Shown one piece after another: positions 2,095 to 58,850 of a stretch of DNA of 64,000 nt (its first letter is position 1; every line of letters starts with the position of its first letter). Source of the DNA: an uncultured bacterium. Its GTDB lineage: Bacteria > Patescibacteriota > Minisyncoccia > Phycocordibacterales > UBA9973. A program made the translations under genes and the position numbers. Under the pieces are notes generated by a model, which saw only the letters and a program-made list of their open reading frames with translations, was not told the DNA's origin and did not search any database. Location: NCBI GenBank assembly GCA_903892035.1, contig CAITGV010000001.1, positions 355,310 through 419,309 of the forward strand. Direction: 5' to 3'.

Positions 2095-2103
2095 TATTTA
2101 GAA

Positions 2104-2136: not shown

Positions 2137-2152
2137 CCTAAAATTAAAACCT

Positions 2153-2193: not shown

Positions 2194-2416
2194 GTTTGTG
2201 GTAGGAAAATTAAAATCATTCTCTATTCTATTACTCATATCTAGGAGGGCGCTACTTCCAAGGTGTCGGGGAAACGAAAAAAGAGCCAATTAAGAACGAA
2301 TACTGGGAGTGCCCGAAGTGCTATCGGGGGAAATAAGGAAGTTTCCCCAGCTTTTAATATCAAAATGCAAATTAAAAGTAAATGCTTTTACTTTTAATTT
2401 GGTGTCCCAAGAGTTG

Positions 2417-2440
2417 CCCCGCAAGGAGTACCTTGCGGGG
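2417..2440. repeat. GC-rich hairpin CCCCGCAAGG-agta-CCTTGCGGGG (copy 2)
   Basis: A 10-bp perfect stem with the same arms as the 2153 copy. Confidence 0.6.
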
Positions 2441-2673
2441 CTTGGCAGGCGGGGCAGATGGCAAAAGATCCAGATTTTAAAAATCCTTCCGGCGGGCATT
2501 AAAAACCAAAACCCCGAATTTTTAAGCTTGGAAAATGGGGCAAAATGTGGGAGACAAGTTATCCCCATTGACTGTGAACGGTAGTTTACAGTATACTTAG
2601 ACTGTAGTCGTTAAAATAATATTATAATAATCTTAAGTATTTGTAGTAAAAATTTGCTACAATAAATAAACAC

Positions 2674-3597: not shown

Positions 3598-3601
3598 TTG
3601 T

Positions 3602-6015: not shown

Positions 6016-6124
6016 AAGAAAATAAAACTTATAAATAGAAGAAGACTCCAACTAGGAATATGGGTCAATGTGTGTTATTGTTTTAATATATAAAACCTAT
6101 TATTATTTTAACTATTTAAGCATT

Positions 6125-7822
6125 ATGGAATTAATTAAAAGTTCGTCAAGAAGAAATGTAGATAATTTGTTTAATTCTTCTACAGAAATTTATAAAATAC
6201 CTGATTATCAAAGAGATTATAAATGGACAACCGACGAAGCTGAACAATTTTTAGAAGATTTCTCAAATGCTGATTTTTTTGAACCACAGTACTTGGGAGT
6301 TATTGTAACAAATTCGTCACAAACTAAGTATCGAACGTTTGACGAAATTGAAGTTATTGATGGACAACAAAGACTAACTACATTATTTTTAATATTTTTA
6401 GCAATAAGAAAATTTGCCAAAGATAACAATAATGATTCTTTGGTTATAACCTTAGATCAAAAATTAATATCACACGAAGAACTGCATCAGATTTATAAAA
6501 TTAAAACTCATAAATATTTACAAGATTTTTTTGATGCTGCATTTAATTATAAAAGTGGCTCGGCGCTTAAAGGAAAAACCGTCAAAAAAGTATATGAAGC
6601 AATTTATAATTACATTTCAACATATATAAAACCTGATCGTTTGAAAGATTTTTATTTAGCAGTTATAAAATCGGAGTTCGTTTACATTGAAATAGGGAAT
6701 GCTTCTCCTTTTGAAATTTTTGAGCGAATGAATTACCGCGGTATGGATCTGGCAGTATCTGATTTATTAAAGAATAAATTATTTTTACAGGCACACAAGA
6801 CTGACGATTTAGAAAATATGAAAGAGCATTGGGATAAAATAATAGATGACGCAGGAAGGGTCACTGACAACATAAATAAACTTAGTTTTTCTGCCTTAAT
6901 TCGCTATTTCTATATTTCAAGATTTGGATACATAACAGAAAAAAAATTATATGGTAAATTAGTTGATCAATATAATACACATTATAAGGATAATTTAAAT
7001 ATATTTATTGAAGATTTTGAATCGGTAATTAAATTGCTCTTAATATTATCAAAAAAAAGAAATGAATTATCTTCTGAGGAAATTAAGAGTCTACCAGGTA
7101 GAAATTCTGAGAGAGGTTATTTAAGAACGATATTATCCCTGAAGACTTTTGGAGTTATTCAACCATATTCGCTACTTCTTTCGTTGTTTGCAAAAGAACG
7201 TAATTTAGATTTAAGAAATTGGTTAAATAGAATTGAAGTGTTTCATTTTGTCTATTCATATATTTCGAATGGTCCCGCCCGTGAATTTGAGAAGAAATAT
7301 TCTGAAACTGCAAAAAATGTATTTAATGCAGAGTCAGATAATGACGTTCAAGCTGAATTGAATAACTTTGTTAATGATTTAGGTATTCTGATAAATAAGA
7401 CCACGACAAAGGAAAAATTTATTAGTGATGTTTCGTCTAAGTTGGTTTACGGTTCGGACAGTGATGCAATCAAATTTTTTTATGAATATATCGAAGAAGA
7501 ATATTTTGGAAGAAATCTACAGGGAATTACATTTATAAATAATCCGCAAATTTCGTTAGACCATATTTGTCCTCAAAATGAAAAAGAAGACCATAGTTTA
7601 GGCAATTTAATTGTTTTAGAAACTGATATTAATCAACAACTTCAAGATGCTAGCTATAAAATAAAAAAGGAAAAGATTCTTTCTGGTAGTGGAATTAGTA
7701 TTACAAAAGAACTATTTAATAAATATGATAATTGGGGGGAAGATCAAATTAATGATTGGGGTAAGTATATTGCTTCTATTTTTTGGGACGAAATCGTTAT
7801 TAAGTATTTTAATCTAAGGTAA
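6125..7822 (+). CDS. DUF262/DUF1524 (GmrSD-like) type IV restriction-type nuclease
   Basis: N-terminal ParB/DUF262 motifs (IPDYQRDYKW, IDGQQRLTT) and C-terminal DUF1524 His-Me finger (LDHICPQ...GNLIVLE). The in-frame ORF begins at 6068, but the likely start is the Met at 6125 (MELIKSS). Confidence 0.7.
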   Translation: MELIKSSSRRNVDNLFNSSTEIYKIPDYQRDYKWTTDEAEQFLEDFSNADFFEPQYLGVIVTNSSQTKYRTFDEIEVIDGQQRLTTLFLIFLAIRKFAKDNNNDSLVITLDQKLISHEELHQIYKIKTHKYLQDFFDAAFNYKSGSALKGKTVKKVYEAIYNYISTYIKPDRLKDFYLAVIKSEFVYIEIGNASPFEIFERMNYRGMDLAVSDLLKNKLFLQAHKTDDLENMKEHWDKIIDDAGRVTDNINKLSFSALIRYFYISRFGYITEKKLYGKLVDQYNTHYKDNLNIFIEDFESVIKLLLILSKKRNELSSEEIKSLPGRNSERGYLRTILSLKTFGVIQPYSLLLSLFAKERNLDLRNWLNRIEVFHFVYSYISNGPAREFEKKYSETAKNVFNAESDNDVQAELNNFVNDLGILINKTTTKEKFISDVSSKLVYGSDSDAIKFFYEYIEEEYFGRNLQGITFINNPQISLDHICPQNEKEDHSLGNLIVLETDINQQLQDASYKIKKEKILSGSGISITKELFNKYDNWGEDQINDWGKYIASIFWDEIVIKYFNLR

Positions 7823-7934
7823 TTTAACTGCGTTAATTCCTAAATCTGTAGGTTTTTAAAAAAGACTAATGGACTAATGGGGTCAGGTACCATTATTTTC
7901 AAATTGAATTACTTAACCTGATATAATACCCCCC

Positions 7935-8276
7935 ATGTCAACCAAACAAAGCACGATAGACTATATTTTGGATCAGTTGGTGGATAGGAGCCGGGTTTCG
8001 GCGCGGAAGATGTTTGGCGAGTATGCGCTTTATTGTGATGGTAGGGTTGTGGCTTTGGTGTGCGATGATACATTGTTTGTGAAGATTACGGAGGAGGGCA
8101 AGGATTTTGTCGGCAAGCATTACAAAGAAGGCTTTGCGTACAAGGGCGCCAAAGCATCAATGGTGATAGACGAAGACCGTATCGAGGACCGAGAGTGGTT
8201 GGGGGAGTTGATCCGCATCACCGCTTTGCATGTGCCACTGCCGAAAGTGAAAAATAAATCTAAAAAAAGGAATTAA
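7935..8276 (+). CDS. TfoX N-terminal domain protein
   Basis: Similarity pattern to the TfoX/Sxy N domain (YAL..DGRVVALVCDDTLFVK). Local GC is much higher than the flanks. Confidence 0.5.
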   Translation: MSTKQSTIDYILDQLVDRSRVSARKMFGEYALYCDGRVVALVCDDTLFVKITEEGKDFVGKHYKEGFAYKGAKASMVIDEDRIEDREWLGELIRITALHVPLPKVKNKSKKRN

Positions 8277-8298
8277 AGTCCTGTGATAGAATATATTT

Positions 8299-8664
8299 AT
8301 GTACCTAAACCCTCTAACTGAAGAAGAGAAAAGAGTTCTAATTGATAAAGGCACGGAGATGCCTTTTGCGGGTGAGTATGTGAACAATACTGCTCATGGG
8401 GTGTATGTGTGTCGGCAATGTGGTGCACCTTTGTATAATTCGAAAGACAAATTTGAAAGTACGTGTGGATGGCCGAGTTTTGATCAAGAAATTCCTGGTG
8501 CAATAAAGCGGGCTTCATATATTGATCCGAGATTTGGCCAAGAAATAACTTGTGCAAGTTGTGGTGGGCACCTAGGGCATATATTTGAAGGGGAAATGCT
8601 GACCGATAAGAACATTCGTCATTGCGTGAATTCAATTTCGTTTAAATTCATTGAGGGGAAATAG
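8299..8664 (+). CDS. msrB: peptide-methionine (R)-S-oxide reductase MsrB
   Basis: GWPSF motif and CxxC...CGGHLGHIF zinc/catalytic signature. Confidence 0.85.
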   Translation: MYLNPLTEEEKRVLIDKGTEMPFAGEYVNNTAHGVYVCRQCGAPLYNSKDKFESTCGWPSFDQEIPGAIKRASYIDPRFGQEITCASCGGHLGHIFEGEMLTDKNIRHCVNSISFKFIEGK

Positions 8665-8698
8665 GAACTAATATTTTTTGATTAATTCAGGACTGTTT

Positions 8699-9814
8699 TT
8701 ATATTTTTTTCCTTCTTAATATAAAAAAATAGTAAAGAATTGCAATAATAATAATAGTTATTTGACCAGGGTAGCGAGTGCTTAAAGTATACGGTAAAGC
8801 AATGAATGCGAGTGACTTGCTCGGGCGCTTGCTTTCTCTATAAGCTATAATTTTTTTCATTTGTTCTTCATTTTTAGCTTTTACTGTAGCGAGTTCTTCT
8901 GGGCTTAGTTGAACTGATTCGCCATTTTTATCGTATTTAAATTCTGGTAATATTGGAAACATGGCTTTTTCAGCTTGAAAATCTTTAAGGAAAGTGGATT
9001 CAGATTTATTTTCGATGGGTTGTATTGCAAGTCTAAGTGGTAAACCCAAGAACATTGTTGCGTATGAGATCGGAGGTACGTAAGACAATAATAAGATAAT
9101 AAGAACTATTGGAATATAGTAAGGGTATTTTTTTCTTTTATTTGCTTGCTGGATTATAGTATTTTTTTTAAATTTAATTTTTCTAACTATAAAGATAAAG
9201 AAAATAATAAGTGCAATAATAAAACCAAAAACTATCATTTGATTATATATATAGCCAAGTGATAAAGAGTCTGCAAATGCTCCTTGTTTGAGAGTTCCTT
9301 TGAAGGGAACAACCTCCTTGATATTTTTTCCTGTAAAATATTTACCAGTTCCTATTTCTGTGTAAAATGGTGGGTGTGTATCAAAAAGCTTCATCCCGCT
9401 CATTGGCCCAGGTAACAGTAGTTGTGGTAAAAAATATTCTTTCTTTACCTGAACAATACTGTCTTTTGGTAATATCGTTTGTTGTTGTCCAACAGAACCG
9501 AGTTTGTAATCTCTATCTAATTGTATTTGTCCCGTAGCTGAATTTACACCTGAACTCGCGGTGTTAATGAATAAAAAAATTGTAATTACAAAAAAAGCTA
9601 TTGTTGCGCATAGTATAATTATCCATTTTTTATTCGACGTGTTATTTATCGGCTCTGGCACGATTATATTTTCTGGGATAATTTCAGAAAATGCTTCTTC
9701 TATATCTGCTTCGTTCCAGTTGCTTTGTTGTCTCAGTGTAGCTTTGATCTCATCTTTAGTTTTTCCTACAGCAAGTGAGTTTTTAATATAATCAACAAAT
9801 TCTTTTGTAATCAT
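8699..9814 (-). CDS. hypothetical membrane protein
   Basis: 371-aa ORF with a soluble N-terminal region followed by TM helices. No motif recognised. Confidence 0.4.
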   Translation of the reverse strand: MITKEFVDYIKNSLAVGKTKDEIKATLRQQSNWNEADIEEAFSEIIPENIIVPEPINNTSNKKWIIILCATIAFFVITIFLFINTASSGVNSATGQIQLDRDYKLGSVGQQQTILPKDSIVQVKKEYFLPQLLLPGPMSGMKLFDTHPPFYTEIGTGKYFTGKNIKEVVPFKGTLKQGAFADSLSLGYIYNQMIVFGFIIALIIFFIFIVRKIKFKKNTIIQQANKRKKYPYYIPIVLIILLLSYVPPISYATMFLGLPLRLAIQPIENKSESTFLKDFQAEKAMFPILPEFKYDKNGESVQLSPEELATVKAKNEEQMKKIIAYRESKRPSKSLAFIALPYTLSTRYPGQITIIIIAILYYFFILRRKKI

Positions 9815-9939
9815 TTTTTAAGTATATTATTTAAGACAAATAAATACAAATTTTGCACTTGATGTGTCGAAAATAAAACAGAACATCTTTAATTAAAAAA
9901 AGATTTCGTATTCAAGAATATAATTGTTATACTGCAATT

Positions 9940-10290
9940 ATGGAATATTGGATCAAGAGACTTTCTCATCCACTCCGAGGACTGAAATATGCCTTTACTC
10001 GCGATTTTGCTATTCAGTTTGAAACAATAGTTTTTGGAATTATTGGTTTACCACTCGTGTATTTTTTATTCAAACTTTCAGCCAAAGAATTACTTCTACT
10101 TATATTTTGTTGGTTTTTTATTGTTGTTACTGAAATTCAAAATTCGTCTATTGAAATAGCTCTTACCAAACTTCACCCAGAGAACGATGAGGCGATTGGA
10201 CGAAGCAAAGACCTTGCTTCGGCAGCTGTCGTGTGGGCATTTATATTCGGACTCATTTGTTTATTGTTTGTAATAAGTGGAAAAATTTAA
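9940..10290 (+). CDS. dgkA: diacylglycerol kinase family protein
   Basis: About 116 aa with three TM helices and a DgkA-like pattern (E..NS.IE, DLASAAVVWAF). Confidence 0.6.
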   Translation: MEYWIKRLSHPLRGLKYAFTRDFAIQFETIVFGIIGLPLVYFLFKLSAKELLLLIFCWFFIVVTEIQNSSIEIALTKLHPENDEAIGRSKDLASAAVVWAFIFGLICLLFVISGKI

Positions 10291-10325
10291 AAAAGTAGAA
10301 ATGCAAACAAGAGTTAGTTATCCAC

Positions 10326-10359
10326 AAATATCTTGTGAACATATGTTCACAAGATATTT
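10326..10359. promoter_or_regulatory. LexA box (perfect Cheo box GAACATATGTTC inside a 34-nt perfect palindrome)
   Basis: aaatatcttgtgaacatatgttcacaagatattt, lying 22 nt upstream of the ATG of the RhuM/Doc gene. Confidence 0.65.
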
Positions 10360-10380
10360 GTTTGGTGGTAAAATTAAAGT

Positions 10381-11379
10381 ATGAAAAAGAAAATCGTAGA
10401 AAAAAAGAATAATAAAAATGGTTTGGTAATCTATCAGGCAAAATCTGGAGCAATTGAGCTCCGGGGAGATATTAGTAAGGAGACTATTTGGGCGACACAA
10501 GCTCAAATTATAAAGTTATTTGGAATTGACCAATCTGTTGTGTCTAGACACATTAAAAATGTCTTTAAAGATAAGGAAATTGACCTAAGAAGCAATATGC
10601 AAAAAATGCATATTGCAAATTCAGACAAACCAGTGATTCTGTATTCATTAGATGTTATTCTTGCCGTTGGATATCGCACAAATTCAAAAACTGCTATTGA
10701 TTTTCGAAGATGGGCCACAAAGACTCTTAAAGAATATCTTGTTCAGGGATATGTTGTAAATGAAAAGCGTCTGCTTGAAGCCAAAGAGAATTTCAATAAA
10801 TTACAAAATACGATTGCATTTCTTAATGAAAAATCACACAAGGAATTACTTTCTGGGCAAGGTAAAGAGATTTTGGATTTGCTTGGTTCGTATGCCAAGA
10901 CACTCACATTGCTCGATGAGTATGATAGAGGCGAGCTCAGTTCCGCAAAAGGCACAAAAGGTAAATTTGTTATTTCATATGAACATTGTTTGGAAGTAAT
11001 TATCGAAGTCAGGAATGAACTTGCAAACAAAGGAGAAGCGAGTGAGCTTTTTGGTTGTGAGCGAGATGGTTCGTTTGGGGGAATTATCAAAGGGCTTTAT
11101 CAAACATTTGGTGGAAAGGAGTTATATTCAACTCTTGAAATAAAAGCTGCACATATCTTGTATTTGATTATAAAAGATCATCCTTTTTCTGATGGGAACA
11201 AAAGAATGGGTTCATTTCTCTTTGTGTATTTCTTAGACAAAAACAATGCTCTATATCGTGAACATGGTGAGAAGAAAATTAATGACAATGCGCTCGCTTC
11301 GCTCGCGCTTCTAATTGCCGAAAGCGATCCTAATGAAAAAGATCAAATGATTGCACTTATTACACAATTGTTGAAGTAA
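10381..11379 (+). CDS. RhuM-family / Fic-Doc domain protein (Doc-type motif HPFSDGNKR)
   Basis: The C-terminal motif HPFSDGNKR matches the Doc-subfamily signature Hx[FY]x[DN]GNKR. The N-terminal region resembles RhuM-like proteins. Confidence 0.6.
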   Translation: MKKKIVEKKNNKNGLVIYQAKSGAIELRGDISKETIWATQAQIIKLFGIDQSVVSRHIKNVFKDKEIDLRSNMQKMHIANSDKPVILYSLDVILAVGYRTNSKTAIDFRRWATKTLKEYLVQGYVVNEKRLLEAKENFNKLQNTIAFLNEKSHKELLSGQGKEILDLLGSYAKTLTLLDEYDRGELSSAKGTKGKFVISYEHCLEVIIEVRNELANKGEASELFGCERDGSFGGIIKGLYQTFGGKELYSTLEIKAAHILYLIIKDHPFSDGNKRMGSFLFVYFLDKNNALYREHGEKKINDNALASLALLIAESDPNEKDQMIALITQLLK

Positions 11380-35248: not shown

Positions 35249-35716
35249 ATGAAAAAAAGACCAAATTATGATCTACTACACCTTTTAACTTGGGTAGTAG
35301 CTGTGCTGGCAACTGTAACTATTGTTGTCGACTATCTCTTTAATGCAAGAGCAGACATGATATATTATTTTCATGTTGCAATTGTGTGTTTAACTTCTAT
35401 ACAACTTTGTTATAATTTTGCCTTTGTTTATCTCAGAAGGCTAAACTTATCACAATTACTTTTTTGGATTTTTCTCGGATTTTTAACAACATCAATTGCA
35501 ATGAAATTCTGTGATGACATTATTGGTAATGTTGAAGTCAAACTTCAACATATAATCAGTTTTTGTTTGCCAGTATTTATTTCAATGTGTGCATATTGTT
35601 ACTCTTACCGAAAAAGGATTTCAAAAAAATTTTGGGAGTGGTTAAACGATAGTACTTTTTGGGAGAATTACAATGCTCTTCCTAAGGGTTGTCCGATACC
35701 GTACATTTACTATTAA
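35249..35716 (+). CDS. hypothetical membrane protein
   Basis: 155-aa ORF with 4-5 TM helices. Confidence 0.35.
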   Translation: MKKRPNYDLLHLLTWVVAVLATVTIVVDYLFNARADMIYYFHVAIVCLTSIQLCYNFAFVYLRRLNLSQLLFWIFLGFLTTSIAMKFCDDIIGNVEVKLQHIISFCLPVFISMCAYCYSYRKRISKKFWEWLNDSTFWENYNALPKGCPIPYIYY

Positions 35717-40934: not shown

Positions 40935-41471
40935 CATTGCATTTTCACCCCAAAAATGCTACTATGTGGTGTGCTTTGTAAATCAATATTTGAGATTTAC
41001 AGGCATGCCTCGCACATTGCGAAAGCATTTGTGCAGGGGTTATCCACATTATAGTTTTGCGACTTCGGTTGCATATATACTATAATGTTTATATGTGTAA
41101 TGCCTGACGGATTTTTTTCCGTTTTGTCGTGCACATGTCCATGGAGTGATCATTGAAAATTAAATAAATTGTTTTCGTTAATAAAAAACAAAACAATATA
41201 TAGATTGATTTTTATATTTATTTTTCGCATTGCGATATGCGTAAAATTTTTATAATTATTATTCTCGTTTTCTTGATCAACGTTTATTTTGCAACTACCG
41301 AAATTGTTTTAAAAACCAATTTCGTTTAGTAACAAATTCGGGAGCGTTAATTAAGCTCCGGAATTTAAAATGCGCAACATATTAGTTTTGTCGAAATTAA
41401 TTAATAGCGCATAGATCCACAGTGTATGAATAATTTAATTTCGTACGCTCGACGGTCACATTAAAAAAAAT

Positions 41472-44400
41472 ATGTTAAAAACAAAAATTGCGAAAGCAAT
41501 TCTTGGATTTGTAGCAATGCTTATGTTGGTTGTTGGCTTTTCAGCTAATGCTTACACATTCACAGCTCCAAATCTAATGAAAGGTTCAACAGGCGAGGCT
41601 GTCAAACAGCTTCAAATGGTTTTGAACGCAACTCCTGCAACTCAAGTTGCTACATCGGGTGCTGGTTCTCCAGGAATGGAAACTATGTACTTCGGTGGTG
41701 CTACTAAAACTGCAGTGATGAAATACCAGACAGCTCATGGTCTTCCGTCAACAGGTCTTGTTGGTCCAATGACACGCGCTGTGTTAAATGGAACACAAGT
41801 AGTAGTACAAGGAAACTGTCCTACAGGATTCCACACAGTTACTCCTGTTGCTCCAACATTCGCAGCATGTGCTGCAGACGTTGCAAATCAATCAGGTCCT
41901 GTAACAGTAGCTATGGCTTCAGATAGCCCAGCTTCAGGTTCTGTTGTTTCTCCATCAACTGGTGCTGTATTTGCTAAATACACATTTACAGGTAATGGCA
42001 CAGTTACTTCAATGAGTTTCAAGAGAACAGGTATTTCTTCAAATACTTCTCTCACAAACATCTATCTTTATGATGGGGCAACTCGTTTGACAGATGGATT
42101 TTCATTGAATTCTGACAATACAGCAACATTTGCTAATATCAGTGGTCTATTTACAGTTTCAGGCACACGAACAATTTCAGTGGTTGCTGATGTAACAGGC
42201 TCTGATTACAGTATTGGTCTAGATCTTACAAGTATCACTTCAGGTGGCGTAGTTTCACCTGTTAGTGTTGTAGGAAATGTTCAATATGTTGCAGTAGTTT
42301 CAAACCCAGCTACAGTAGACTTTGGAACTGTAACACCTACAGGTGGTTCAATTGACCCAGCTCATGATGTTGTAGTATTCAATAGTAATGTAAACGTTGG
42401 TACACGTGATGTTACTCTTACACGTTTGGCGATGCGTCAAATTGGTTCAGTTAACACAAGTGATATTGCTAACTTCCGTCTTATGATTGATGGTACAACA
42501 GTATCAACTGTTGCTACTATGGACATGAACGGTTATGTAACATTTGCTCTTGCTACACCAAAAGTTCTTACAACAGGAACACGTGTGTTTAAAGTTCTTG
42601 CAGATGTTAATGCTGGATCATCACGAACATTCCAATTCTCAATCCGTAACAAGACAGATATTGGTATAATGGATACACAATACAATGCAGGAGTTGCTGC
42701 AACATTTAATTCAAGCAACTTCCCAGCAAGTTCAGTAGCTGCAACTTCAATCAATTCTGGCTCAGTCACAGTACAAAAAGCTTCTGATTCAACGTCAGGA
42801 AATGTTACTTTGAATGGCCACGATGTTGTTCTTGCTCGTTACAGTTTGACAACATACGGTGAATCTCTAAAGATTGAAACAATCTTGGCTGGATTTACTT
42901 CTTCAAACGGTAGTGTTGGTTCACTTCGAAATGGCCGTATTATGATAAACGGTTCTCAAGTTGGTTCAACAGCTACACTTTTGAAAGTAGGTTCTGGTGG
43001 AACTTCGTTCACAACAAATTACACACTTGCAGCTGGTCAACCTGCTACTCTTGAAATTCGTGCAGATTTGTACGACAACGATGGAACAAATGATCTTGCT
43101 ATAAGTGATACAGTAACTGGCCGATTGATGGTTCCAGGTTCTGCGAACACACAACGTTTGTCATCACTTGGTTACATAACAGTCCCTGCTTCTTACTATG
43201 ATGGAAATGCTTTGAGTGTCCAATCTGCTGCATCTTTGACAATGGCAAAGACTTCAACATATAGTGCACAAACAACAGCTGTTCCTCAAACTCAGTCATA
43301 CAAGGTTGCTTCTTACTCTTTGAGTGGAAACAATGTTGAAGACGTAAATCTTGATACAGTTTCAGTAGATTTCACTGCTGTTTCTGGAACAACATTTACA
43401 TCAGCTGATCTTACAGATGTAACTCTAAAGATTGACGGTACAGTTATAGGTTCACCAAAATCAACAGTAACTGCAACTGGTAATTCTTACTCAATCACAA
43501 AAGTTCTTCCAAAGAATGGAACAATGAATATTGAACTATGGGCAACTATTGGTTCAACAATCACTGCAACTAATTCGATTAAGGCAACTACGACAGTTTC
43601 TGGTGTTGGTGCTTCATCTTCAGTAGCTTCTTCAACAGGAGCAGTTGATGGTCAAGTAATAACAGCAAACTCCGGTTCAATTACAGCTACAACTGATGCT
43701 TCACGACCTGATGCATCTATGAATGATGATTCTGGTACAAAGACAATGGCTGCATTTAAATTTGCTGCCGTTACAGATTCTTACACAGTTACAGATCTTA
43801 CATTTACAGTTGCTGATGTAACTACTGTTTCTCAAATGAGTCTATATGATGGAACAACTCTTATTGCTCAAAAGACTGCAGCAGGAACAACAACCTTCAG
43901 CGGTATTTCATGGCCAATTCCAGCTGGTACATCAAAGATTCTTACAGTTAAATTGGATCTTGGTACAGTTGGTGTAGGTAATGGTTCAACTGGTGCTTCA
44001 ACACTTGTTACATTGACTTCAGGTCTTGCAACAAATGGTGCTGGTACAAATGCTGCGATTACACAGAGTAATCCTGCAGGTACTGCACAATACACATTCA
44101 AGGCTATTCCTACTCTAACAACAGTTACACTTCCTACTACATCACTTGTAGCTGGAACAAATACTCTTGCTAAGTTCTCAGTAAATACAAATGGTACTGG
44201 AACAGTAGGATGGAACAGAATCGTATTAAACGTAACAAAGACTGATCATCCAACTCTATCAACATTCACACTTTGGAATGCTGATTCGAATACTCAAATT
44301 GCCGGTACATTTATAGTACATGACACTGCAAACGTAGCTTCTTGTATTGCAACTGACGGTAGTGGAGATACTTGCCGCCTAGGATTTGTTCCTGGAACAG

Positions 44401-44693
44401 AACAACAAGTTTCTGGTTCAGTAAACTATGTTCTTAAGGCAACAGTTGGAGGTGCTCTTGCAACAGCAGACTATGTAAGTACAACTATCCCATCAAACAC
44501 TGCGTCATTTGTGGCTTCAAACACATATTCGACAATTGCGGGTAGTCCATCAACATACACAAACTATGGAACAACTCCATCATTTGTATGGTCTGATGTT
44601 TCAGCTGCTAGTCACGATACTACAACATCTGACTGGTCAACTGATTACCTAGTTCGCTCATTGCCACTTGATTCACAAACTCTTACAAAATAA
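41472..44693 (+). CDS. large secreted surface protein with N-terminal peptidoglycan-binding domain
   Basis: Signal peptide, a PG_binding_1-like segment (GSTGEAVKQLQ...MKYQTAHGLPSTGLVGPMT), then roughly 900 aa of Thr/Ser/Val/Gly-rich beta-type repeats. GC is higher than in neighbouring genes. Confidence 0.6.
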   Translation: MLKTKIAKAILGFVAMLMLVVGFSANAYTFTAPNLMKGSTGEAVKQLQMVLNATPATQVATSGAGSPGMETMYFGGATKTAVMKYQTAHGLPSTGLVGPMTRAVLNGTQVVVQGNCPTGFHTVTPVAPTFAACAADVANQSGPVTVAMASDSPASGSVVSPSTGAVFAKYTFTGNGTVTSMSFKRTGISSNTSLTNIYLYDGATRLTDGFSLNSDNTATFANISGLFTVSGTRTISVVADVTGSDYSIGLDLTSITSGGVVSPVSVVGNVQYVAVVSNPATVDFGTVTPTGGSIDPAHDVVVFNSNVNVGTRDVTLTRLAMRQIGSVNTSDIANFRLMIDGTTVSTVATMDMNGYVTFALATPKVLTTGTRVFKVLADVNAGSSRTFQFSIRNKTDIGIMDTQYNAGVAATFNSSNFPASSVAATSINSGSVTVQKASDSTSGNVTLNGHDVVLARYSLTTYGESLKIETILAGFTSSNGSVGSLRNGRIMINGSQVGSTATLLKVGSGGTSFTTNYTLAAGQPATLEIRADLYDNDGTNDLAISDTVTGRLMVPGSANTQRLSSLGYITVPASYYDGNALSVQSAASLTMAKTSTYSAQTTAVPQTQSYKVASYSLSGNNVEDVNLDTVSVDFTAVSGTTFTSADLTDVTLKIDGTVIGSPKSTVTATGNSYSITKVLPKNGTMNIELWATIGSTITATNSIKATTTVSGVGASSSVASSTGAVDGQVITANSGSITATTDASRPDASMNDDSGTKTMAAFKFAAVTDSYTVTDLTFTVADVTTVSQMSLYDGTTLIAQKTAAGTTTFSGISWPIPAGTSKILTVKLDLGTVGVGNGSTGASTLVTLTSGLATNGAGTNAAITQSNPAGTAQYTFKAIPTLTTVTLPTTSLVAGTNTLAKFSVNTNGTGTVGWNRIVLNVTKTDHPTLSTFTLWNADSNTQIAGTFIVHDTANVASCIATDGSGDTCRLGFVPGTEQQVSGSVNYVLKATVGGALATADYVSTTIPSNTASFVASNTYSTIAGSPSTYTNYGTTPSFVWSDVSAASHDTTTSDWSTDYLVRSLPLDSQTLTK

Positions 44694-44717
44694 TAGTTTA
44701 GGCTTCATGTAGTAATA

Positions 44718-44796
44718 GTTTCTCGATTCTTAAAATTGAAAGTCTGGTTGACTTAAATCACCAACAAAAAAGCACCCTTCACCGGGTGCTTTTTTG
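44718..44796 (+). repeat. cassette-boundary direct repeat DR1 plus terminator hairpin
   Basis: AGTTTCTCGATTCttaaaatTGAAAGTCTGGTtGACTtAAATCACCAACAAAAAAGC, then hairpin gcacccttcaccgggtgc and a T-run. Copies also at 46827 and 47478. Confidence 0.65.
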
Positions 44797-44822
44797 CTTG
44801 CCAAAAATTAAAATACCCTCGT

Positions 44823-44841
44823 GTTGAAGTTTGACTTCAAC
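44823..44841. repeat. REP-like hairpin GTTGAAGTTTGACTTCAAC
   Basis: 7-bp stem and 5-nt loop. Further copies at 44860-44876, 45068-45085 (inside the RAYT ORF) and an inverted copy at 45610-45628. Confidence 0.6.
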
Positions 44842-44897
44842 AAAAAGTAATTAAAAACTGTTGAAGTTTGACTTCAGTGGTGATAATATTTATGTAT

Positions 44898-45608
44898 ATG
44901 AGAAAAGAACAATTTGGTGTTGACTCTATAATTCATGTTTATAATCGTGGAAATAGAAAACAAAAAATAGTAATAGATGATAATGATCGGTGGCATTTTT
45001 TACAGATACTTTTTTATTTTAATGACGAATTTTCTCCAGTGAATCCATTCCGCACACTAAGGGAACTGTTGAAGTTTGACTTCAGCAGTAAACTTATCTG
45101 GCCAGATGAATGGCCAGAAAGAAATAAACTTGTAAATATTGTAGGTTTTTCATTGAAAGATAATCATTTTCATTTAATTATTCAGGAAATTAAAGAAGGA
45201 GGAACAACAAAATTTATGAGGAAGTTTGGTACTGGAATGACAAATTATTTTAATACAAAATATAAAGAAAGAGGAAAACTTTTTCAGGGTTCATATAAAG
45301 CAAGATTGGTTGATACAGATAATTATTTAAAATATTTAAGTGTATATGTTCAAGTAAAAAATGTTATTGAAATGTATTCGGGTGGGTTAGAAAATGCAAT
45401 TTTAAATTTTGATCATGCTTATCAATTTGCAATAGATTATAAATACGGAAGTCTTGGTTCACAAATTTTACAAAATCTTGAAACAGATAAAATTCTTGAT
45501 AATCACATACTGGTTGATCTTTTTAAAAGTGGAGAGTATAAAAAATTTTCAAAAGAATGTTTAACATTTGTAATTTTTGATGAAAAAAAATCTCAACTTG
45601 TATATTAG
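44898..45608 (+). CDS. REP-associated tyrosine transposase (IS200-like Y1 HUH)
   Basis: N-terminal HVYNRGNRKQKIV, HUH motif HFHLIIQ, and the catalytic Tyr region GKLFQGSYKARLVDTDNYLKYL. Flanked by inverted REP hairpins. The track ORF starts at TTG 44868 inside a REP. Confidence 0.6.
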   Translation: MRKEQFGVDSIIHVYNRGNRKQKIVIDDNDRWHFLQILFYFNDEFSPVNPFRTLRELLKFDFSSKLIWPDEWPERNKLVNIVGFSLKDNHFHLIIQEIKEGGTTKFMRKFGTGMTNYFNTKYKERGKLFQGSYKARLVDTDNYLKYLSVYVQVKNVIEMYSGGLENAILNFDHAYQFAIDYKYGSLGSQILQNLETDKILDNHILVDLFKSGEYKKFSKECLTFVIFDEKKSQLVY

Positions 45609-45609
45609 T

Positions 45610-45628
45610 TGTTGAAGTCAAACTTCAA
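45610..45628. repeat. REP-like hairpin, inverted copy (GTTGAAGTCAAACTTCAAC)
   Basis: Exact reverse complement of the 44823 element, lying immediately after the RAYT stop. Confidence 0.6.
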
Positions 45629-45639
45629 CGGAAACTTCA

Positions 45640-45739
45640 ACAGAATACATATGTCCGCCTATGGGGAAATGCATGCGGTTTTCGGTAGAAAACCGCATGC
45701 GTAGTTTACCAGTTTGTATTACGTTGATATAATTAATCA
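45640..45739 (+). ncRNA. conserved structured leader upstream of MazF-like gene (copy 1)
   Basis: Contains hairpin GCATGCGGTTTTC-ggtag-AAAACCGCATGC (45671-45700) and the palindromic gttgatataattaatcaa just before the ATG. A paralogous copy lies at 46237-46351. Confidence 0.45.
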
Positions 45740-46123
45740 ATGAAAGATTTTGATAATTGGAACAAAGAAAAACAATATATAAATAACTTAAATCACCACC
45801 CCTACTGTGCTATTCGAGAAATATGGTGGTGTTCATTGGGAGTAAATGTGGGTGTTGAGATTGATGGAAAAAATGGAAAATTTGAAAGACCAGTTCTAAT
45901 TTTGAAATATTTAAATAAAGACATGGTATTAGTAATACCACTTACAACAAAAAATAAAAATGATAAAAATCATATTCAAATTGAAATGGAAGATAGGGTT
46001 TCTTTTGCAAAGATTTCCCAATCTAGAGTTATTAGCACGAAGAGACTTTTAAGAAAGATAGATATGTTGCCAGAGGGGGAATTTGTGGAGGTCAAGAAAA
46101 AATTTATAGAATTTCTTTCATAA
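45740..46123 (+). CDS. MazF/PemK-like toxin-fold protein
   Basis: REIWWCSLGVNVGVE..GK....RPVLILK....MVLVIPLTTK pattern of the PemK/MazF family, with a 25-aa N-terminal extension. Confidence 0.6.
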   Translation: MKDFDNWNKEKQYINNLNHHPYCAIREIWWCSLGVNVGVEIDGKNGKFERPVLILKYLNKDMVLVIPLTTKNKNDKNHIQIEMEDRVSFAKISQSRVISTKRLLRKIDMLPEGEFVEVKKKFIEFLS

Positions 46124-46136
46124 ACATCGAAACCCC

Positions 46137-46160
46137 CTTGCGGGGGTTTCTCGGAGGCCG
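46137..46160 (+). terminator. terminator hairpin after MazF-like gene 1
   Basis: gaaacccccttgcgggggtttc immediately after the stop. Confidence 0.55.
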
Positions 46161-46236
46161 AAGCCGTCAATACATATATAATATATTTTTTAAATTAATT
46201 GTCAACTGTTTAAAATCCGCACAAGTCAGGCTTGTG

Positions 46237-46351
46237 CGAAGGAAAATACATATGTCCGACCTATGGGGGAACTGCGTGCGGTTTTCGGTAGAAAACCGCA
46301 CGCTGGATTATTTATTTTTGTAAATTATCATAGTGTTGATATAATTAATCA
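46237..46351 (+). ncRNA. conserved structured leader upstream of MazF-like gene (copy 2)
   Basis: Same hairpin as copy 1 with an A>G / T>C compensatory pair (GCGTGCGG...CCGCACGC, 46274-46303), plus an upstream hairpin CGCACAAGtcaggCTTGTGCG (46208-46228). Confidence 0.45.
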
Positions 46352-46738
46352 ATGAAGGATTATATTAACTGGAATAAAAAGAAAATTCAAATTGACGAAA
46401 TAAAAAACAGACCATTTTTTCACGAAAGAGAAATTTGGTTTTGTCATCTGGGTGTTAATGTTGGGTTTGAGCAAGATGGTTCAAATGATGAATTTTTAAG
46501 ACCTGTTGTTATTGTGCGGAAGTTTAATAACAGTATATTTTTGGCAGTTCCACTAACTCGAACAAATAAGAAGAATCAATTTTATTTTCAGTTTATTTTT
46601 AATGAAAATGAAAAAAGTACAGCTATTTTATCTCAGATCAAGCTTATTGATGGTAGACGATTAAGTTATAAAATTGGTGATATTTCAGAAATAGATTTTA
46701 TTGAACTAAAGAAAAAACTCAAGGCTTTGATACCTTGA
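46352..46738 (+). CDS. MazF/PemK-like toxin-fold protein (paralog)
   Basis: REIWFCHLGVNVGFE..GS....RPVVIVR....IFLAVPLTRT. Paralogous to 45740..46123, including the N-terminal extension MKD.(D/I)NWNK. Confidence 0.6.
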   Translation: MKDYINWNKKKIQIDEIKNRPFFHEREIWFCHLGVNVGFEQDGSNDEFLRPVVIVRKFNNSIFLAVPLTRTNKKNQFYFQFIFNENEKSTAILSQIKLIDGRRLSYKIGDISEIDFIELKKKLKALIP

Positions 46739-46826
46739 GTTTTTTCCATTTATACCTCCACCAAAGGTGGAGTCGGGCCGAGGCCATTTGTATTTACACT
46801 TTATCAAATAGCAAAGATAAAGTCAA

Positions 46827-46900
46827 AGTTTCTCGATTCTAAATCGAAAGTCTGGTCGACTCAAATCACCAACAAAAAAGCGGTAGGCAAGACCTACCGC
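46827..46900 (+). repeat. cassette-boundary direct repeat DR2 plus terminator hairpin
   Basis: AGTTTCTCGATTCTAAATCGAAAGTCTGGTCGACTCAAATCACCAACAAAAAAGC, then hairpin gcggtaggcaagacctaccgc. Confidence 0.65.
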
Positions 46901-46965
46901 TAAAATCCGCACAAGTCAGACTTGTGCGAAAGGAAAATACATATGTTCGACCTATGAGGAATTGC
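46901..46965 (+). repeat. truncated third copy of the MazF leader
   Basis: aaaatccgCACAAGtcagaCTTGTGcgaaaggaaaatacatatgttcgacctatgagg matches the start of leader copy 2, then diverges into the relB/relE cassette. Confidence 0.5.
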
Positions 46966-46997
46966 GTAATATCTATTTTGTGTGGTATAGTAATGAT

Positions 46998-47219
46998 ATG
47001 AATACGTTGATAAAAAAAATCAATATTGGAACCCTCGAGGATAAACCTGTGGTTATGATGTCTGCAGATATTTGGGAAAAAATGCAAGCAAAATTTCTTG
47101 AAATGCAGGAGGATTTAGAAATGTATACTTCTAAGACATACAAGAAGAGTATTACTCGCGCAAGAAATTCTAAGAAATTTTTTACTAGTTCTGAAGCACG
47201 TAAAAAACTAGGTTTATAA
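46998..47219 (+). CDS. antitoxin (RelB/DinJ- or Phd-like) of RelE/ParE pair
   Basis: Small acidic/basic protein immediately upstream of the RelE-like gene, separated by 3 nt. The start could also be 46962. Confidence 0.45.
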   Translation: MNTLIKKINIGTLEDKPVVMMSADIWEKMQAKFLEMQEDLEMYTSKTYKKSITRARNSKKFFTSSEARKKLGL

Positions 47220-47222
47220 TAT

Positions 47223-47477
47223 ATGCGTTATCTTATTACCGAAGAAGGTATAAGAACTTTGTTGCAATTGCCAAAGTCTGTGCAAAGAAAAATTCTAGAT
47301 AAATTAGATTATATTTTTGAAACCGAAAACCCGTTTACATACTCAAAAAAATTAAATCATTTTGAATATGGAGATTATCGAATGAGAATAGGGGACTATC
47401 GTGCATCGTTTGATTTAAAAAATAATACGGCATATTTTTTAAAGTTTGGACATCGCAAAGATTTTTATAAGAAATAA
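47223..47477 (+). CDS. RelE/ParE-family toxin
   Basis: C-terminal YRMRIGDYRASFDLKNNTAYFLKFGHRKDFY, typical of the RelE/ParE fold (R..DYR...F, GHRKD.Y). Confidence 0.65.
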   Translation: MRYLITEEGIRTLLQLPKSVQRKILDKLDYIFETENPFTYSKKLNHFEYGDYRMRIGDYRASFDLKNNTAYFLKFGHRKDFYKK

Positions 47478-47562
47478 AGTTTCTCGATTCAAAATCGAAA
47501 GTCTGGTCGACTCAAATCACCAACAAAAAAGCACTCCGACCTAGGTCGGAGTGCTTTTTTTT
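47478..47562 (+). repeat. cassette-boundary direct repeat DR3 plus terminator hairpin
   Basis: AGTTTCTCGATTCAAAATCGAAAGTCTGGTCGACTCAAATCACCAACAAAAAAGC, then hairpin gcactccgacctaggtcggagtgc and a T8 run. Confidence 0.65.
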
Positions 47563-47636: not shown

Positions 47637-48143
47637 ATGGGACAAAAAACTACAAATAGAACAGCATGGGCGATTATTGTTGTAGCAATTTTGGCAGTAG
47701 GGGCGTATTTGATATTTAATAAGTCAGCTGTAAATCCAGTAGCGACAGATAGTATTTCAGACAATACAAACACAGTAGCTGATACTATCACAAATCCAAC
47801 CAATGAACCTGAATCTGTGCAGGATACATCGGGGCAGACAGGTGGTGTTGCGCCAGTGACTCTATCTTATGCAAATGCTTTGATAAAGTATGCAGACAGA
47901 AGGATCCAACTTAATGCAACTTGCCAAGCATATCCGTACAATGTTACATACAAAGACAATACAGGTATTATGATATACAACAGGTCTCCAAATACTCGCA
48001 CAGTGAAGGTGGGAACGACATTTACTATAAAACCTTGGGGATTTAGGATAGTTGTTCTTCCTGATATATATCTAAAATCAAAGACTATTTTGGTAGATTG
48101 TGACAAAATGCAAAACGTAGCGACGATATTGGTCCAAGAGTAG
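47637..48143 (+). CDS. hypothetical membrane-anchored protein
   Basis: N-terminal TM helix (AWAIIVVAILAVGAYLIF), then a Thr-rich linker and a C-terminal domain. Confidence 0.4.
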   Translation: MGQKTTNRTAWAIIVVAILAVGAYLIFNKSAVNPVATDSISDNTNTVADTITNPTNEPESVQDTSGQTGGVAPVTLSYANALIKYADRRIQLNATCQAYPYNVTYKDNTGIMIYNRSPNTRTVKVGTTFTIKPWGFRIVVLPDIYLKSKTILVDCDKMQNVATILVQE

Positions 48144-55192: not shown

Positions 55193-55396
55193 CAGAACGA
55201 TCATTCATTAATAAATAAATCCTGTTGCACACAAAAATTATTTCTTCCAAAGTAAGAATTTATTTTTTATTTTGGTGGGTCTTTGAGCCGTGTGTAAACA
55301 GAACCTCGAAGTTTTTATTTTTTTCGCCAAGCGGTTGGTATCAGAGAAATAAAAACTTCGAAAAACGAAAATTGTGATTTTTAAATTTCCTAATAG

Positions 55397-58850
<3,454 letters not shown>

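What the first reader, a model, noticed from the sequence alone, without database searches (positions are those of the whole stretch)
44716..47562. Cassette array delimited by three copies of a roughly 60-nt direct repeat plus terminator
The sequence AGTTTCTCGATTC.AAA..GAAAGTCTGGT.GACT.AAATCACCAACAAAAAAGC, followed by a variable GC hairpin and T-run, occurs at 44718, 46827 and 47478. The first copy sits right after the stop of a core surface-protein gene. The other two end the inserted blocks, which are REP-RAYT plus two MazF-like genes, then relB/relE. A truncated third copy of the MazF leader (46901-46965) is joined abruptly to the relBE cassette. The pattern looks like repeated site-specific or homology-driven insertion of toxin cassettes at one hotspot, each carrying a copy of the same attachment-like sequence. 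This is reminiscent of integron/attC or tandem genomic-island arrays, but no integrase is nearby.
Basis: seen in the sequence. Interest (0 to 1): 0.65.

Follow-up and report, generated by a model that had tools for sequence, protein, structure and literature searches.

The report
Duplicated surface-gene 3'UTR flanks toxin cassettes
Three copies of the short RNA tail and terminator of a tiny bacterium's main surface-protein gene bracket small toxin-antitoxin gene blocks. This looks like repeated homology-driven insertion at a gene-gain hotspot, not a new integron-like system.

Summary
Three direct copies of a 57-nt sequence lie at 44717, 46825 and 47476, where none is expected by chance. They bracket REP-RAYT plus two MazF-like genes, then relBE.

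The repeat is not a generic terminator and not an attC site. It is the 3'UTR element of the surface-protein gene of this Patescibacteria genome. Its 21-nt core sits, as a single copy, right after the homologous gene in four other genomes. One of them, L002, is an "empty site". Its first hairpin appears to be a degenerate form of a candidate 3'UTR pseudoknot found after this gene in 22 genomes; that motif shows strong covariation and is absent from Rfam.

None of the 43 ORFs of at least 150 aa in the window is an integrase. RecA, RecO and SSB are present.

Two parallels argue against a fixed att site. Another genome (L026) has triplicated its own, unrelated, surface-gene 3'UTR around small genes. 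The same relBE family elsewhere (L119-L124) is flanked by a 48-nt duplication of the gap gene start.

Best reading: homology-driven (Campbell-type or unequal-crossover) accretion at a conserved hotspot between the surface gene and rplJ. This mechanism is inferred, not shown. Interest is moderate.

The parts
41472..44693 (+). Surface-protein gene S (1073 aa; signal peptide plus PG_binding_1 N-terminus, beta-repeat body). It is the core gene whose 3'UTR is the source of the repeat.
   Evidence: 427 homologues in Patescibacteria; conserved synteny RecA-FtsK-HTH-S.
44717..44773 (+). Repeat copy 1 (R1), the native 3'UTR element. It consists of hairpin 1 (TCGATT/AATTGA with a G-U pair), hairpin 2 (TGGT-T-GA CTTAAA TC ACCA) and an A-tract.
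   Evidence: The core GTCTGGTTGACTTAAATCACC is identical in L001 and L002 after the homologous gene.
44772..44795 (+). Terminator hairpin hp1 (GCACCC TTCACC GGGTGC) plus T6. The hairpin and the following GCTTGCCAA resemble the terminator region of L037 and L025.
   Evidence: compared by eye and output.
44823..45629 (+). REP-RAYT unit. The Y1_Tnp transposase-like ORF (44895-45608) is flanked by inverted REP palindromes GTTGAAGTTTGACTTCAAC (44823-44841 and 45611-45629). Extra REP-like copies lie at 44860 and 45068. The unit is inserted into the first 'leader'.
   Evidence: (I4).
45638..45739 (+). Leader copy 1 (partial): the AATACATATGTCCG segment, hairpin B (45671-45700) and an extended -10 promoter whose TATAAT ends 6 nt before the ATG (leaderless layout).
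   Evidence: (D4, D5, D8).
45740..46123 (+). mazF-1 (127 aa, PemK/MazF). No antitoxin ORF lies upstream.
   Evidence: It is 45% identical to mazF-2.
46124..46165 (+). 3' module of mazF-1: hairpin 46129-46150 followed by TCGGAGGCCGAAGCC.
46211..46351 (+). Leader copy 2 (complete): TAAAATCC, hairpin A (46218-46238), the AATACATATGTCCGACCTATGGGG segment, hairpin B (46274-46303, terminator-like) and promoter TTGTAA-16-TATAAT.
46352..46738 (+). mazF-2 (128 aa, PemK/MazF). It is 84% identical to the single mazF in the same intergenic hotspot of relatives L085 and L086.
46739..46785 (+). 3' module of mazF-2: hairpin 46755-46772 plus GAGTCGGGCCGAGGCC. It is conserved after every homologue examined.
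   Evidence: L085-L093.
46825..46881 (+). Repeat copy 2 (R2), the TCGACTC variant. Its left flank ATAGCAAAGAT..AAAG resembles the 3' end of relE.
46880..46900 (+). Hairpin hp2 (GCGGTAGG CAAGA CCTACCGC). It has no T-run on the + strand and joins the leader directly.
46901..46965 (+). Leader copy 3 (5' part only: TAAAATCC, hairpin A, AATACATATGTTCG segment), joined to the relB promoter region.
   Evidence: (D9, D4).
46998..47219 (+). relB-like antitoxin (73 aa from the ATG at 46998; no Pfam match).
   Evidence: It is conserved as the partner of the toxin in L119-L131.
47223..47477 (+). relE/parE-like toxin (84 aa).
   Evidence: ParE_toxin, E = 0.0048, below cut-off; weak RelE3 and aRelE matches; homologues named RelE/ParE.
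47476..47532 (+). Repeat copy 3 (R3). It starts inside the relE stop codon.
47531..47562 (+). Terminator hairpin hp3 (GCACTCCGACC TAGG TCGGAGTGC) plus T8.
   Evidence: (I2).
47637..48143 (+). p168, the conserved downstream neighbour. It is the first gene after the single repeat copy in the empty-site locus L002.

Best explanation
The 57-nt repeat is the 3'UTR RNA element of the Patescibacteria surface-protein gene. It has two small hairpins and an A-tract that lead into the gene's intrinsic terminator. The space between this gene and p168/rplJ is a lineage-wide hotspot for small accessory genes such as RAYT, MazF and other toxin-antitoxin pairs.

In this genome three small units have accumulated there: mazF-1 (later hit by a REP-RAYT insertion), mazF-2 and relBE. 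They are stitched together by duplicated pieces of the locus' own intergenic sequence: the repeat with its hairpin, and the 'leader'.

The most likely way such duplicates arise is recombination that needs no dedicated integrase. A circularised or misaligned fragment from a related chromosome shares the 3'UTR module. It crosses over once with the resident copy (Campbell-type insertion or unequal crossing-over, RecA-dependent or by microhomology). That duplicates the shared segment on both sides of the insert. Later exchanges between the repeated linkers shuffle and replace cassette contents.

Copies 1 and 3 still look like working terminators. Copy 2 has lost its U-tract, so mazF-2 probably reads through into relBE.

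Shown: the identity and origin of the repeat, the empty site, the hotspot, the absence of an integrase in the window, and the parallel cases. Inferred: the recombination mechanism and the order of events.
For: 1. Origin of the repeat. The core is found as a single copy directly after the homologous surface gene in L001, L002, L025 and L037. L025 and L037 carry a compensatory GGT/ACC to GAT/ATC change in hairpin 2.

2. The first hairpin shares the GTTTCTCGA and AAAATCGA segments of a candidate pseudoknot found 10-32 nt after the stop in 22 loci. In that pseudoknot 93% of cells pair, 10 of 12 pairs change on both sides, 0 of 500 shuffles reach the observed value, and slid controls give 21-44%.

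3. Empty site and hotspot. L002 has S, one copy, then p168. RecA-FtsK-HTH-S-[variable]-L10-L12 is conserved. RAYT lies in the variable part of at least 14 loci and mazF in 4: L010, L085 and L086 between S and rplJ, and L031 downstream of S.

4. No tyrosine or serine recombinase among the 43 ORFs of at least 150 aa in the window. RecA, RecO and SSB are present.

5. The process is independent of sequence. L026 has three copies (96% and 90%) of its own unrelated 106-nt surface-gene 3'UTR and terminator around small genes. There the homology extends through the whole intergenic region to the next start codon.

6. The same relBE family normally sits between dnaE and gap (L125-L131). In L119-L124 it is flanked by a 48-nt (92%) duplication of the gap start, leaving a truncated gap' upstream and an intact gap downstream. 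That is the product expected from a single crossover with a circular relBE-gap fragment.

7. Mosaic identities. R2 and R3 are 98% alike, against about 90% to R1. The leaders are 84-93% alike although mazF-1 and mazF-2 share only 45% of residues.

8. Direct repeats of 40-320 nt downstream of the surface gene occur in L016, L026, L034, L039, L046, L049, L062, L066 and L075 among the 79 surface-gene loci fetched from species genomes.
Against: - 57 nt at about 90% identity is short for RecA-mediated exchange.
- The hairpins after the three copies differ completely. Homology therefore stops exactly at the foot of the hairpin (AAAAAAGC), a sharp boundary that a site-specific or structure-directed cut would also give.
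- An 8-nt motif, TAAAAT[AC]C, sits at all four unit boundaries. These are 4 of the 7 plus-strand copies in the window. It could be a crossover core rather than just a -10 box (predicts one copy as a -10).
- The 21-nt core is 100% identical in genomes whose surface proteins are only 31-33% identical. Yet it is missing from the closest relatives at 65-69%. That patchy pattern would also suit a mobile module.
- Only 64 kb of the genome could be searched for recombinases.
- No circular intermediate or population variant was demonstrated. The L005 hybrid joins within a 22-nt repeat and may be an assembly artefact.
Confidence: 0.5

Rival explanations
1. Site-specific recombination. The repeat, or the TAAAAT[AC]C motif next to it, is an attachment site used by a recombinase encoded elsewhere. 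The array is then a series of tandem integrations whose integrase-bearing parts have been lost. The addictive toxin-antitoxin genes and their att copies remain (an integron- or IMEX-like logic).
For: - Sharp homology boundary at the foot of the terminator hairpin.
- TAAAAT[AC]C at all four boundaries.
- An ultra-conserved 21-nt core shared by distant genomes but patchy among close ones.
- Many mazF and relE homologues lie on very short contigs, as expected if repeats flank them.
Against: - No integrase in 64 kb.
- No inverse core sites of attC type.
- No copy of the repeat or the leader in IMG/VR. Only surface-gene-linked single copies were found in the metagenome scan and none in the species genomes.
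- mazF and relBE homologues in other genomes carry neither the repeat nor the leader.
- L026 and L119 show the same outcome with unrelated duplicated sequences.
Confidence: 0.2
2. Replication-based rearrangement in situ. Forks stall at the strong terminator hairpins of a very highly transcribed gene. Template switching or slippage copies DNA from elsewhere and re-enters upstream. This duplicates the 3'UTR segment without any exchange between chromosomes.
For: - Junctions lie at hairpin feet.
- The phenomenon is tied to the surface gene's terminator region rather than to a sequence.
- Local duplications are frequent downstream of this gene.
Against: - R2 and R3 carry two substitutions in a core that is otherwise invariant, and a different terminator hairpin. 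This suggests a different lineage of origin rather than a fresh local copy.
- The L119 structure, with diverged copies and an intact downstream gap with a donor-type upstream region, fits exchange with a related genome better.
- No tool here can separate this rival from the best explanation.
Confidence: 0.15
3. The repeat is a generic terminator module used after many unrelated genes, or the tandem arrangement is a metagenome assembly artefact.
For: In some other Patescibacteria (L017, L049) one terminator hairpin recurs after several small genes. Short-read unitigs break at the repeats.
Against: - Only 3 copies in 64 kb, all at this locus.
- All outside hits follow the surface gene.
- Six contigs share the gene order.
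- L004 and L005 span copy 1 and copy 2 junctions independently.
Confidence: 0.03

Closest known systems
Integron gene-cassette arrays (attC sites; chromosomal superintegrons rich in toxin-antitoxin cassettes)
   Same: An array of small units, several of them toxin-antitoxin genes with their own promoters. Units are separated by a conserved, hairpin-forming repeat of about 60-140 nt in direct orientation next to a fixed anchor point.
   Different: - No IntI.
- No R''/R' inverse core sites.
- The repeat is the host gene's own 3'UTR and is single-copy in other genomes.
- Its hairpins show RNA-type G-U and compensatory changes on the coding strand.
- One boundary (mazF-1/mazF-2) lacks the repeat.
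Tandem genomic islands at tRNA/tmRNA genes (attL/attR duplicates of the 3' end of an RNA gene)
   Same: Each inserted block is bracketed by a duplicated 3' end of a conserved host transcription unit. There are three copies for two blocks.
   Different: Blocks are only 0.65 and 2.1 kb. There is no integrase or excisionase. The target is an mRNA 3'UTR rather than a stable RNA gene.
Complex class 1 integrons, in which a circle carrying ISCR1, a resistance gene and part of the 3'-CS integrates by homologous recombination and duplicates the 3'-CS (from my own knowledge of the literature)
   Same: Duplication of a resident conserved segment on both sides of newly acquired genes. It arises from a single homologous crossover with a circular intermediate. 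An HUH-family enzyme gene lies in the array.
   Different: The RAYT here is a Y1 REP-associated enzyme flanked by its own REPs. Nothing links it to the formation of the circles.
REP-RAYT (REPIN) systems
   Same: The first block contains a Y1_Tnp protein flanked by inverted 19-21-nt palindromes, and another REP copy lies 9 kb away.
   Different: The REPs are unrelated to the 57-nt repeat. This unit is a passenger inside the array, not its cause.
Xer-dependent elements (IMEX, pdif modules)
   Same: Tandem small modules, often toxin-antitoxin, with no integrase of their own.
   Different: No 28-bp dif-like site with two 11-nt arms can be read in the repeat. There is no strand switch of genes in the window that would mark a terminus. 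I did not test this beyond reading the sequence.

Membership tests
Integron | Adjacent intI tyrosine recombinase gene with attI and Pc | tested here: not met
   All 43 ORFs of at least 150 aa in the 64-kb window were scanned against Pfam. None matched Phage_integrase or a resolvase. The rest of the genome was not available.
Integron | attC: imperfect palindrome bounded by inverse core sites R'' (RYYYAAC) and R' (GTTRRRY) | tested here: not met
   Read. The sequence before the hairpin is CACCAAC, which does not fit RYYYAAC. After the hairpins come GCTTGCC, TAAAATC and GTGTAAT, with no GTTRRRY. The hairpins differ entirely between copies.
Intrinsic (Rho-independent) terminator | GC-rich hairpin directly followed by a U-tract on the transcribed strand | tested here: met
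   Copies 1 and 3 have a hairpin plus T6 or T8, with fold z-scores of -5.8 and -6.5. The scanner missed them because the A-tract extends the stem. Copy 2 does not meet the criterion on the + strand; it is terminator-like only on the - strand.
Conserved 3'UTR RNA element of the surface-protein gene (candidate new motif) | Found at the same position after orthologous genes, with compensatory base changes | tested here: met
   The core occurs after the S gene in L001, L002, L025 and L037, with one compensatory pair in hairpin 2. The upstream pseudoknot in 22 loci has 93% of cells paired and 10 of 12 covarying pairs. That alignment was hand-fitted, which favours the structure. The window copies keep helix 2 only. 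There is no Rfam family.
REP-RAYT | Y1 (HUH) transposase-like protein flanked by inverted REP palindromes, with further REPs in the genome | tested here: met
   Y1_Tnp scores 27.3 bits against a cut-off of 23. A perfect 21-nt inverted pair lies at 44823 and 45609 (I4). Another REP lies at 35531.
MazF/PemK type II toxin | PemK_toxin domain above threshold, with an upstream antitoxin gene | tested here: inconclusive
   The domain criterion is met for both genes, at 52.5 and 40.5 bits against a cut-off of 23.1. No antitoxin ORF lies upstream of either. Some homologues have an overlapping 80-aa upstream gene and others do not.
RelBE/ParDE type II toxin-antitoxin | Small antitoxin gene immediately upstream of a RelE/ParE-fold toxin | tested here: inconclusive
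   The gene pair has a 3-nt gap. The toxin matches ParE_toxin at 17.9 bits, below the cut-off of 23. It has weak matches to RelE3 and aRelE chains, and homologues are named RelE/ParE. The antitoxin has no family match.
Xer/dif module | 28-bp dif-like site at module boundaries | not tested
   I only read the sequence by eye and saw no dif-like site. The dif site of Patescibacteria is not known to me.

The most novel reading that the evidence does not exclude
The surface gene's structured 3'UTR, or the TAAAAT[AC]C motif next to it, is the recombination site of an unrecognised cassette-capture system in Patescibacteria. Such a system would be a functional analogue of an integron. It would use a host mRNA tail as its anchor and an enzyme encoded elsewhere: a distant recombinase, the Y1 RAYT, or a reverse-transcriptase-based route. 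The patchy but 100% conserved 21-nt core would be explained by that system's mobility.
Probability: 0.1. Interest if true: 0.8.

Novelty: new variant of a known kind. Interest (0 to 1): 0.45.

Why it matters
Patescibacteria have tiny genomes and no genetics, so how they gain and lose accessory genes is largely unknown. This locus, together with L026 and L119-L124, suggests a simple and recurrent route. Small toxin-antitoxin and other genes are added next to the most highly expressed surface gene by crossovers that duplicate a piece of host sequence, without a dedicated integrase.

The work also exposes a candidate new RNA motif: a pseudoknot and a conserved hairpin in the 3'UTR of the main surface-protein gene across many Patescibacteria. 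That motif could matter for mRNA stability or termination of the cell's dominant transcript. It is directly testable by RNA-seq 3'-end mapping.

It does not reveal a new class of mobile element.

Tried and rejected
- Rfam, at gathering and permissive thresholds, on the window and six related loci. Only spurious terminator-like matches appeared.
- tRNA/tmRNA scan: none in the window. The repeat is therefore not a duplicated tRNA end.
- Species-genome scan for the core: 0 hits.
- IMG/VR scans for the core and for the leader: 0 hits. A scan for the mazF 3' module gave 25 loci that I did not examine, because a GC-rich 16-mer could match by chance.
- A generic pseudoknot finder was useless. Shuffled sequences scored almost as often as real ones. 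A sequence-anchored descriptor still gave about 0.9 hits per kb of background, although 26 of the 77 3'UTRs scanned were hit where I estimate about 4 by chance. I relied on the covariation count instead.
- A search for a complementary target of the hairpin-2 loop in the window found only the repeat copies themselves.
- L005 as evidence of cassette-number variation was rejected as inconclusive. The join lies in a 22-nt identity and the contig end lies at a 24-nt repeat.
- An RNA duplex test between leader and mazF mRNA timed out.
- Literature searches for integrons or RNA motifs in Patescibacteria, and for similar cassette arrays, found nothing relevant.
- The dif/Xer and MITE readings were considered from the sequence and dropped. 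I saw no dif-like arms, no terminal inverted repeats and no short target duplications.

Full report
**The observation**

The window contains three direct copies of a 57-nt sequence at 44717-44773, 46825-46881 and 47476-47532. A 36-nt core pattern matches exactly these three places and nowhere else in 64 kb, against 0.00 expected in shuffles. Copies 2 and 3 differ at one base. Copy 1 is 89-90% identical to them in gapped alignment.

Copy 1 begins 23 nt after the stop of a 1073-aa protein with a signal peptide and a PG_binding_1 domain. Between copies 1 and 2 lie:
- a Y1_Tnp (RAYT) gene flanked by a perfect 21-nt inverted REP pair;
- two PemK/MazF genes.

Between copies 2 and 3 lie a small antitoxin-like gene and a weak RelE/ParE-like toxin. 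The truncated third 'leader' at 46901-46965 is 92-93% identical to the region upstream of mazF-2.

One detail of the finding is wrong. Copies 1 and 3 are followed by a GC hairpin and T6 or T8. The hairpin after copy 2 is joined directly to TAAAATCC and is terminator-like only on the opposite strand.

The arrangement is present in six contigs from several assemblies. The junctions at copies 1 and 2 are spanned by independent contigs, so an assembly artefact is unlikely.

**What the repeat is**

No Rfam family and no tRNA or tmRNA matches it. A scan of one genome per species found nothing. The metagenome scan found two loci. In both, the 21-nt core GTCTGGTTGACTTAAATCACC, an A-tract and a terminator lie directly after the stop of a homologue of the same surface protein.

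L002 continues with a homologue of the window's p168 (47637-48143).

I fetched 79 loci encoding relatives of the surface protein and read the DNA after each stop. Two more loci (L025, L037) carry the core with GAT...ATC in place of GGT...ACC, a compensatory change in the predicted hairpin 2.

Many loci carry, 10-32 nt after the stop, a motif of the form NGTT-T-CTCGA-AACN'-TAAAA-TCGAG, or the CCTAA/TTAGG version. I aligned 22 of them by hand, using N-padding so that MAFFT left the columns alone. I then counted an H-type pseudoknot:
- 93% of cells pair;
- 10 of 12 pairs change on both sides (for example A-U 9, C-G 6, G-C 3, U-A 1 at one position);
- no shuffle in 500 reaches the observed values;
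- slid registers give 21-44% pairing.

The alignment was fitted to the structure, which favours it. The G-U pairs point to RNA on the coding strand.

The window's three copies share the GTTTCTCGA...AAAATCGA part of this motif but have lost the 3' half of helix 1. What remains is a plain hairpin. In copy 1 the only stem difference is a G-C to G-U change, and the two differences in hairpin 2 fall in a bulge and the loop.

So the repeat is the 3'UTR element of the surface-protein gene. Copy 1, whose core, terminator hairpin and following GCTTGCCAA resemble L037 and L025, looks like the native one.

**The neighbourhood**

RecA-FtsK-HTH protein-surface gene-[variable]-L10-L12 is conserved across the fetched loci. 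The variable part holds p168 and p217 homologues. It holds RAYT genes in at least 14 loci, and MazF genes in L010, L085 and L086; L031 has one downstream of its surface gene. It also holds a beta-lactamase-like gene (L133), HicAB-like pairs and small coiled-coil proteins.

In relatives L085 and L086 a single mazF, 84% identical to mazF-2, sits in this space. There the surface gene's 3'UTR lacks the 57-nt repeat, and neither the repeat nor the leader flanks the mazF.

**Mechanism**

All 43 ORFs of at least 150 aa in the window were compared with Pfam. None is a tyrosine or serine recombinase. RecA, RecO, SSB, FtsK and the RAYT are the only DNA-transaction proteins. The repeat has no attC-type inverse cores. 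Neither the repeat nor the leader occurs in IMG/VR.

Two independent parallels weigh most.

First, in L026 the surface gene's own 3'UTR and terminator (106 nt, unrelated in sequence to the window's repeat) recurs twice downstream at 96% and 90%. The copies bracket a 162-aa and a 223-aa gene and precede a 107-aa gene and a HicAB-like pair. There the homology runs through the whole intergenic region up to the start codon.

Second, homologues of this relBE pair normally lie between dnaE and gap (L125-L131). In L119-L124 the pair is flanked by a 48-nt, 92% direct duplication of the gap promoter-proximal coding start. A truncated gap' is left upstream and an intact gap downstream. The spacing is 649-650 nt, compared with 651 nt between copies 2 and 3 here. 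That is the product expected if a circularised relBE-gap fragment from a relative crossed over once with the resident gap.

Nucleotide homology between the window's relBE and L119 ends exactly at the relE stop codon, where copy 3 begins.

A fixed attachment site cannot explain three different duplicated sequences. A homology- or microhomology-based single crossover, or unequal crossing-over, explains all three.

The mosaic pattern fits repeated exchange between repeated linkers:
- R2 and R3 are almost identical but distinct from R1.
- The leaders are 84-93% identical although the two MazF proteins share 45% of residues.
- A possible relE 3' remnant sits in front of R2 (I estimate about 2% by chance).

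**What keeps the site-specific reading alive**

- Homology ends sharply at the foot of the terminator hairpin, and the three hairpins are unrelated.
- TAAAAT[AC]C marks all four unit boundaries, which are 4 of 7 plus-strand copies in the window. One of them is also a predicted -10 box.
- The 21-nt core is identical in genomes whose surface proteins are 31-33% identical, yet absent from the closest relatives at 65-69%.
- 57 nt is short for RecA.
- Only 64 kb could be searched for enzymes.

I therefore put homology-driven accretion at about 0.5, a trans-acting site-specific system at 0.2, replication template-switching at 0.15, and artefact or generic terminator at 0.03.

**Comparison with known systems**

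The array works somewhat like an integron or a tandem island at a tRNA gene: small units separated by a duplicated, structured, host-linked sequence. It fails the defining tests of an integron, having no IntI and no attC cores.

The closest mechanistic precedent I know is the duplication of the 3'-CS in complex class 1 integrons by homologous integration of a circle. That comparison rests on my own knowledge and was not tested here. The REP-RAYT unit is a bona fide member of its family but is a passenger. It interrupts the first leader copy.

**Verdict**

I class the finding as a new variant of a known kind of event. Its useful by-product is a candidate 3'UTR RNA motif for the main surface-protein gene of Patescibacteria.

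Noticed in passing
L006-L009, L015, L020, L021, L024, L028, L029, L031, L034, L035, L042, L044, L045, L048-L050, L054, L074, L082: 10-32 nt after the surface-gene stop: Candidate new RNA motif: an H-type pseudoknot (NGTT/AACN' and CTCGA/TCGAG or CCTAA/TTAGG helices, A-rich linker) in the 3'UTR of the surface-protein gene, just before the terminator. It has strong covariation and no Rfam family.
   Followed up: partly
L026 7302-7407, 8073-8178, 9120-9231: A second genome has triplicated its own, unrelated, surface-gene 3'UTR and terminator (and most of the intergenic region) around small coiled-coil, 223-aa and HicAB-like genes.
   Followed up: partly
L119 2390-2437 and 3039-3086 (same in L120-L124): Homologues of this relBE pair are flanked by a 48-nt direct duplication of the gap gene start. 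This leaves a 21-codon gap' fragment upstream. In L125-L131 relBE sits next to gap without the duplication.
   Followed up: partly
window 46755-46785 and 46129-46165; L085-L093 after each mazF: Every homologue of this MazF family is followed by a hairpin and the near-invariant GAGTCGGGCCGARGCC (a GGC-CGAR-GCC mini-hairpin), whatever the genomic context. Its function is unknown. The 25 IMG/VR loci with the 16-mer were not examined.
   Followed up: partly
window 45740-46123 and 46352-46738: Both MazF genes lack an upstream antitoxin ORF. Some close homologues (L091-L093) have an overlapping 80-aa upstream gene and others (L085, L089) have none.
   Followed up: partly
window 46189-46320: The 'leader' has a predicted promoter (-10 = TAAAAT at 46211), two palindromes sharing CCGCAC/GTGCGG, and a terminator-like hairpin B with a T-rich tail. 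It could be a small RNA gene or an operator region upstream of the antitoxin-less mazF. Hairpin A plus GAAGGAAA resembles the surface-gene 3'UTR hairpin of L133.
   Followed up: partly
window 45728-45742, 46340-46354, 46983-47000: The TATAAT or TATAGT boxes with an upstream TG end 6-9 nt before the ATG of mazF-1, mazF-2 and relB. These mRNAs are therefore probably leaderless. The same layout is seen in L026, L085 and L119.
   Followed up: no
window 45064-45085 (inside the RAYT ORF) and 44856-44877: A 22-nt stretch containing a REP-like half-site is repeated exactly upstream of and inside the RAYT coding sequence, where it encodes ELLKFDFS. Another full REP lies at 35531-35549.
   Followed up: no
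window 41036-41048; L026 7500, 8275, 9350; L019, L034, L046 downstream of the surface gene: DnaA-box-like TTATCCACA sequences recur in the long upstream region of the surface gene and in the repeated linkers of other loci.
   Followed up: no
L016, L046, L059, L066, L072, L132: surface-gene 3'UTR: A different conserved 3'UTR hairpin with the loop (G)GTCGA(A/T)T precedes the terminator in Nomurabacteria-like loci and in the closest relative, L132. Copies 2 and 3 of the window repeat carry GGTCGA.
   Followed up: no
L014, L017, L043, L049, L059, L065, L066 and others: The terminator AAAAAACCACCC-loop-GGGTGGTTTTTT is nearly identical across many different Patescibacteria. It recurs after several small genes in L017 and L049.
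   Followed up: no
window 55391-58850: The 23S rRNA match spans 3460 nt for a 2925-nt model, so the gene carries about 0.5 kb of inserted sequence.
   Followed up: no
window 1030-11379: A cluster of defence-type genes: two D12 adenine methyltransferases, a GmrSD-like endonuclease and a RhuM/Fic protein.
   Followed up: no
L005 (763 nt, sample ERZ18667851): This contig joins the mazF-1 promoter to mazF-2 within a 22-nt identity. It is either a one-mazF strain variant or an assembly chimera.
   Followed up: partly
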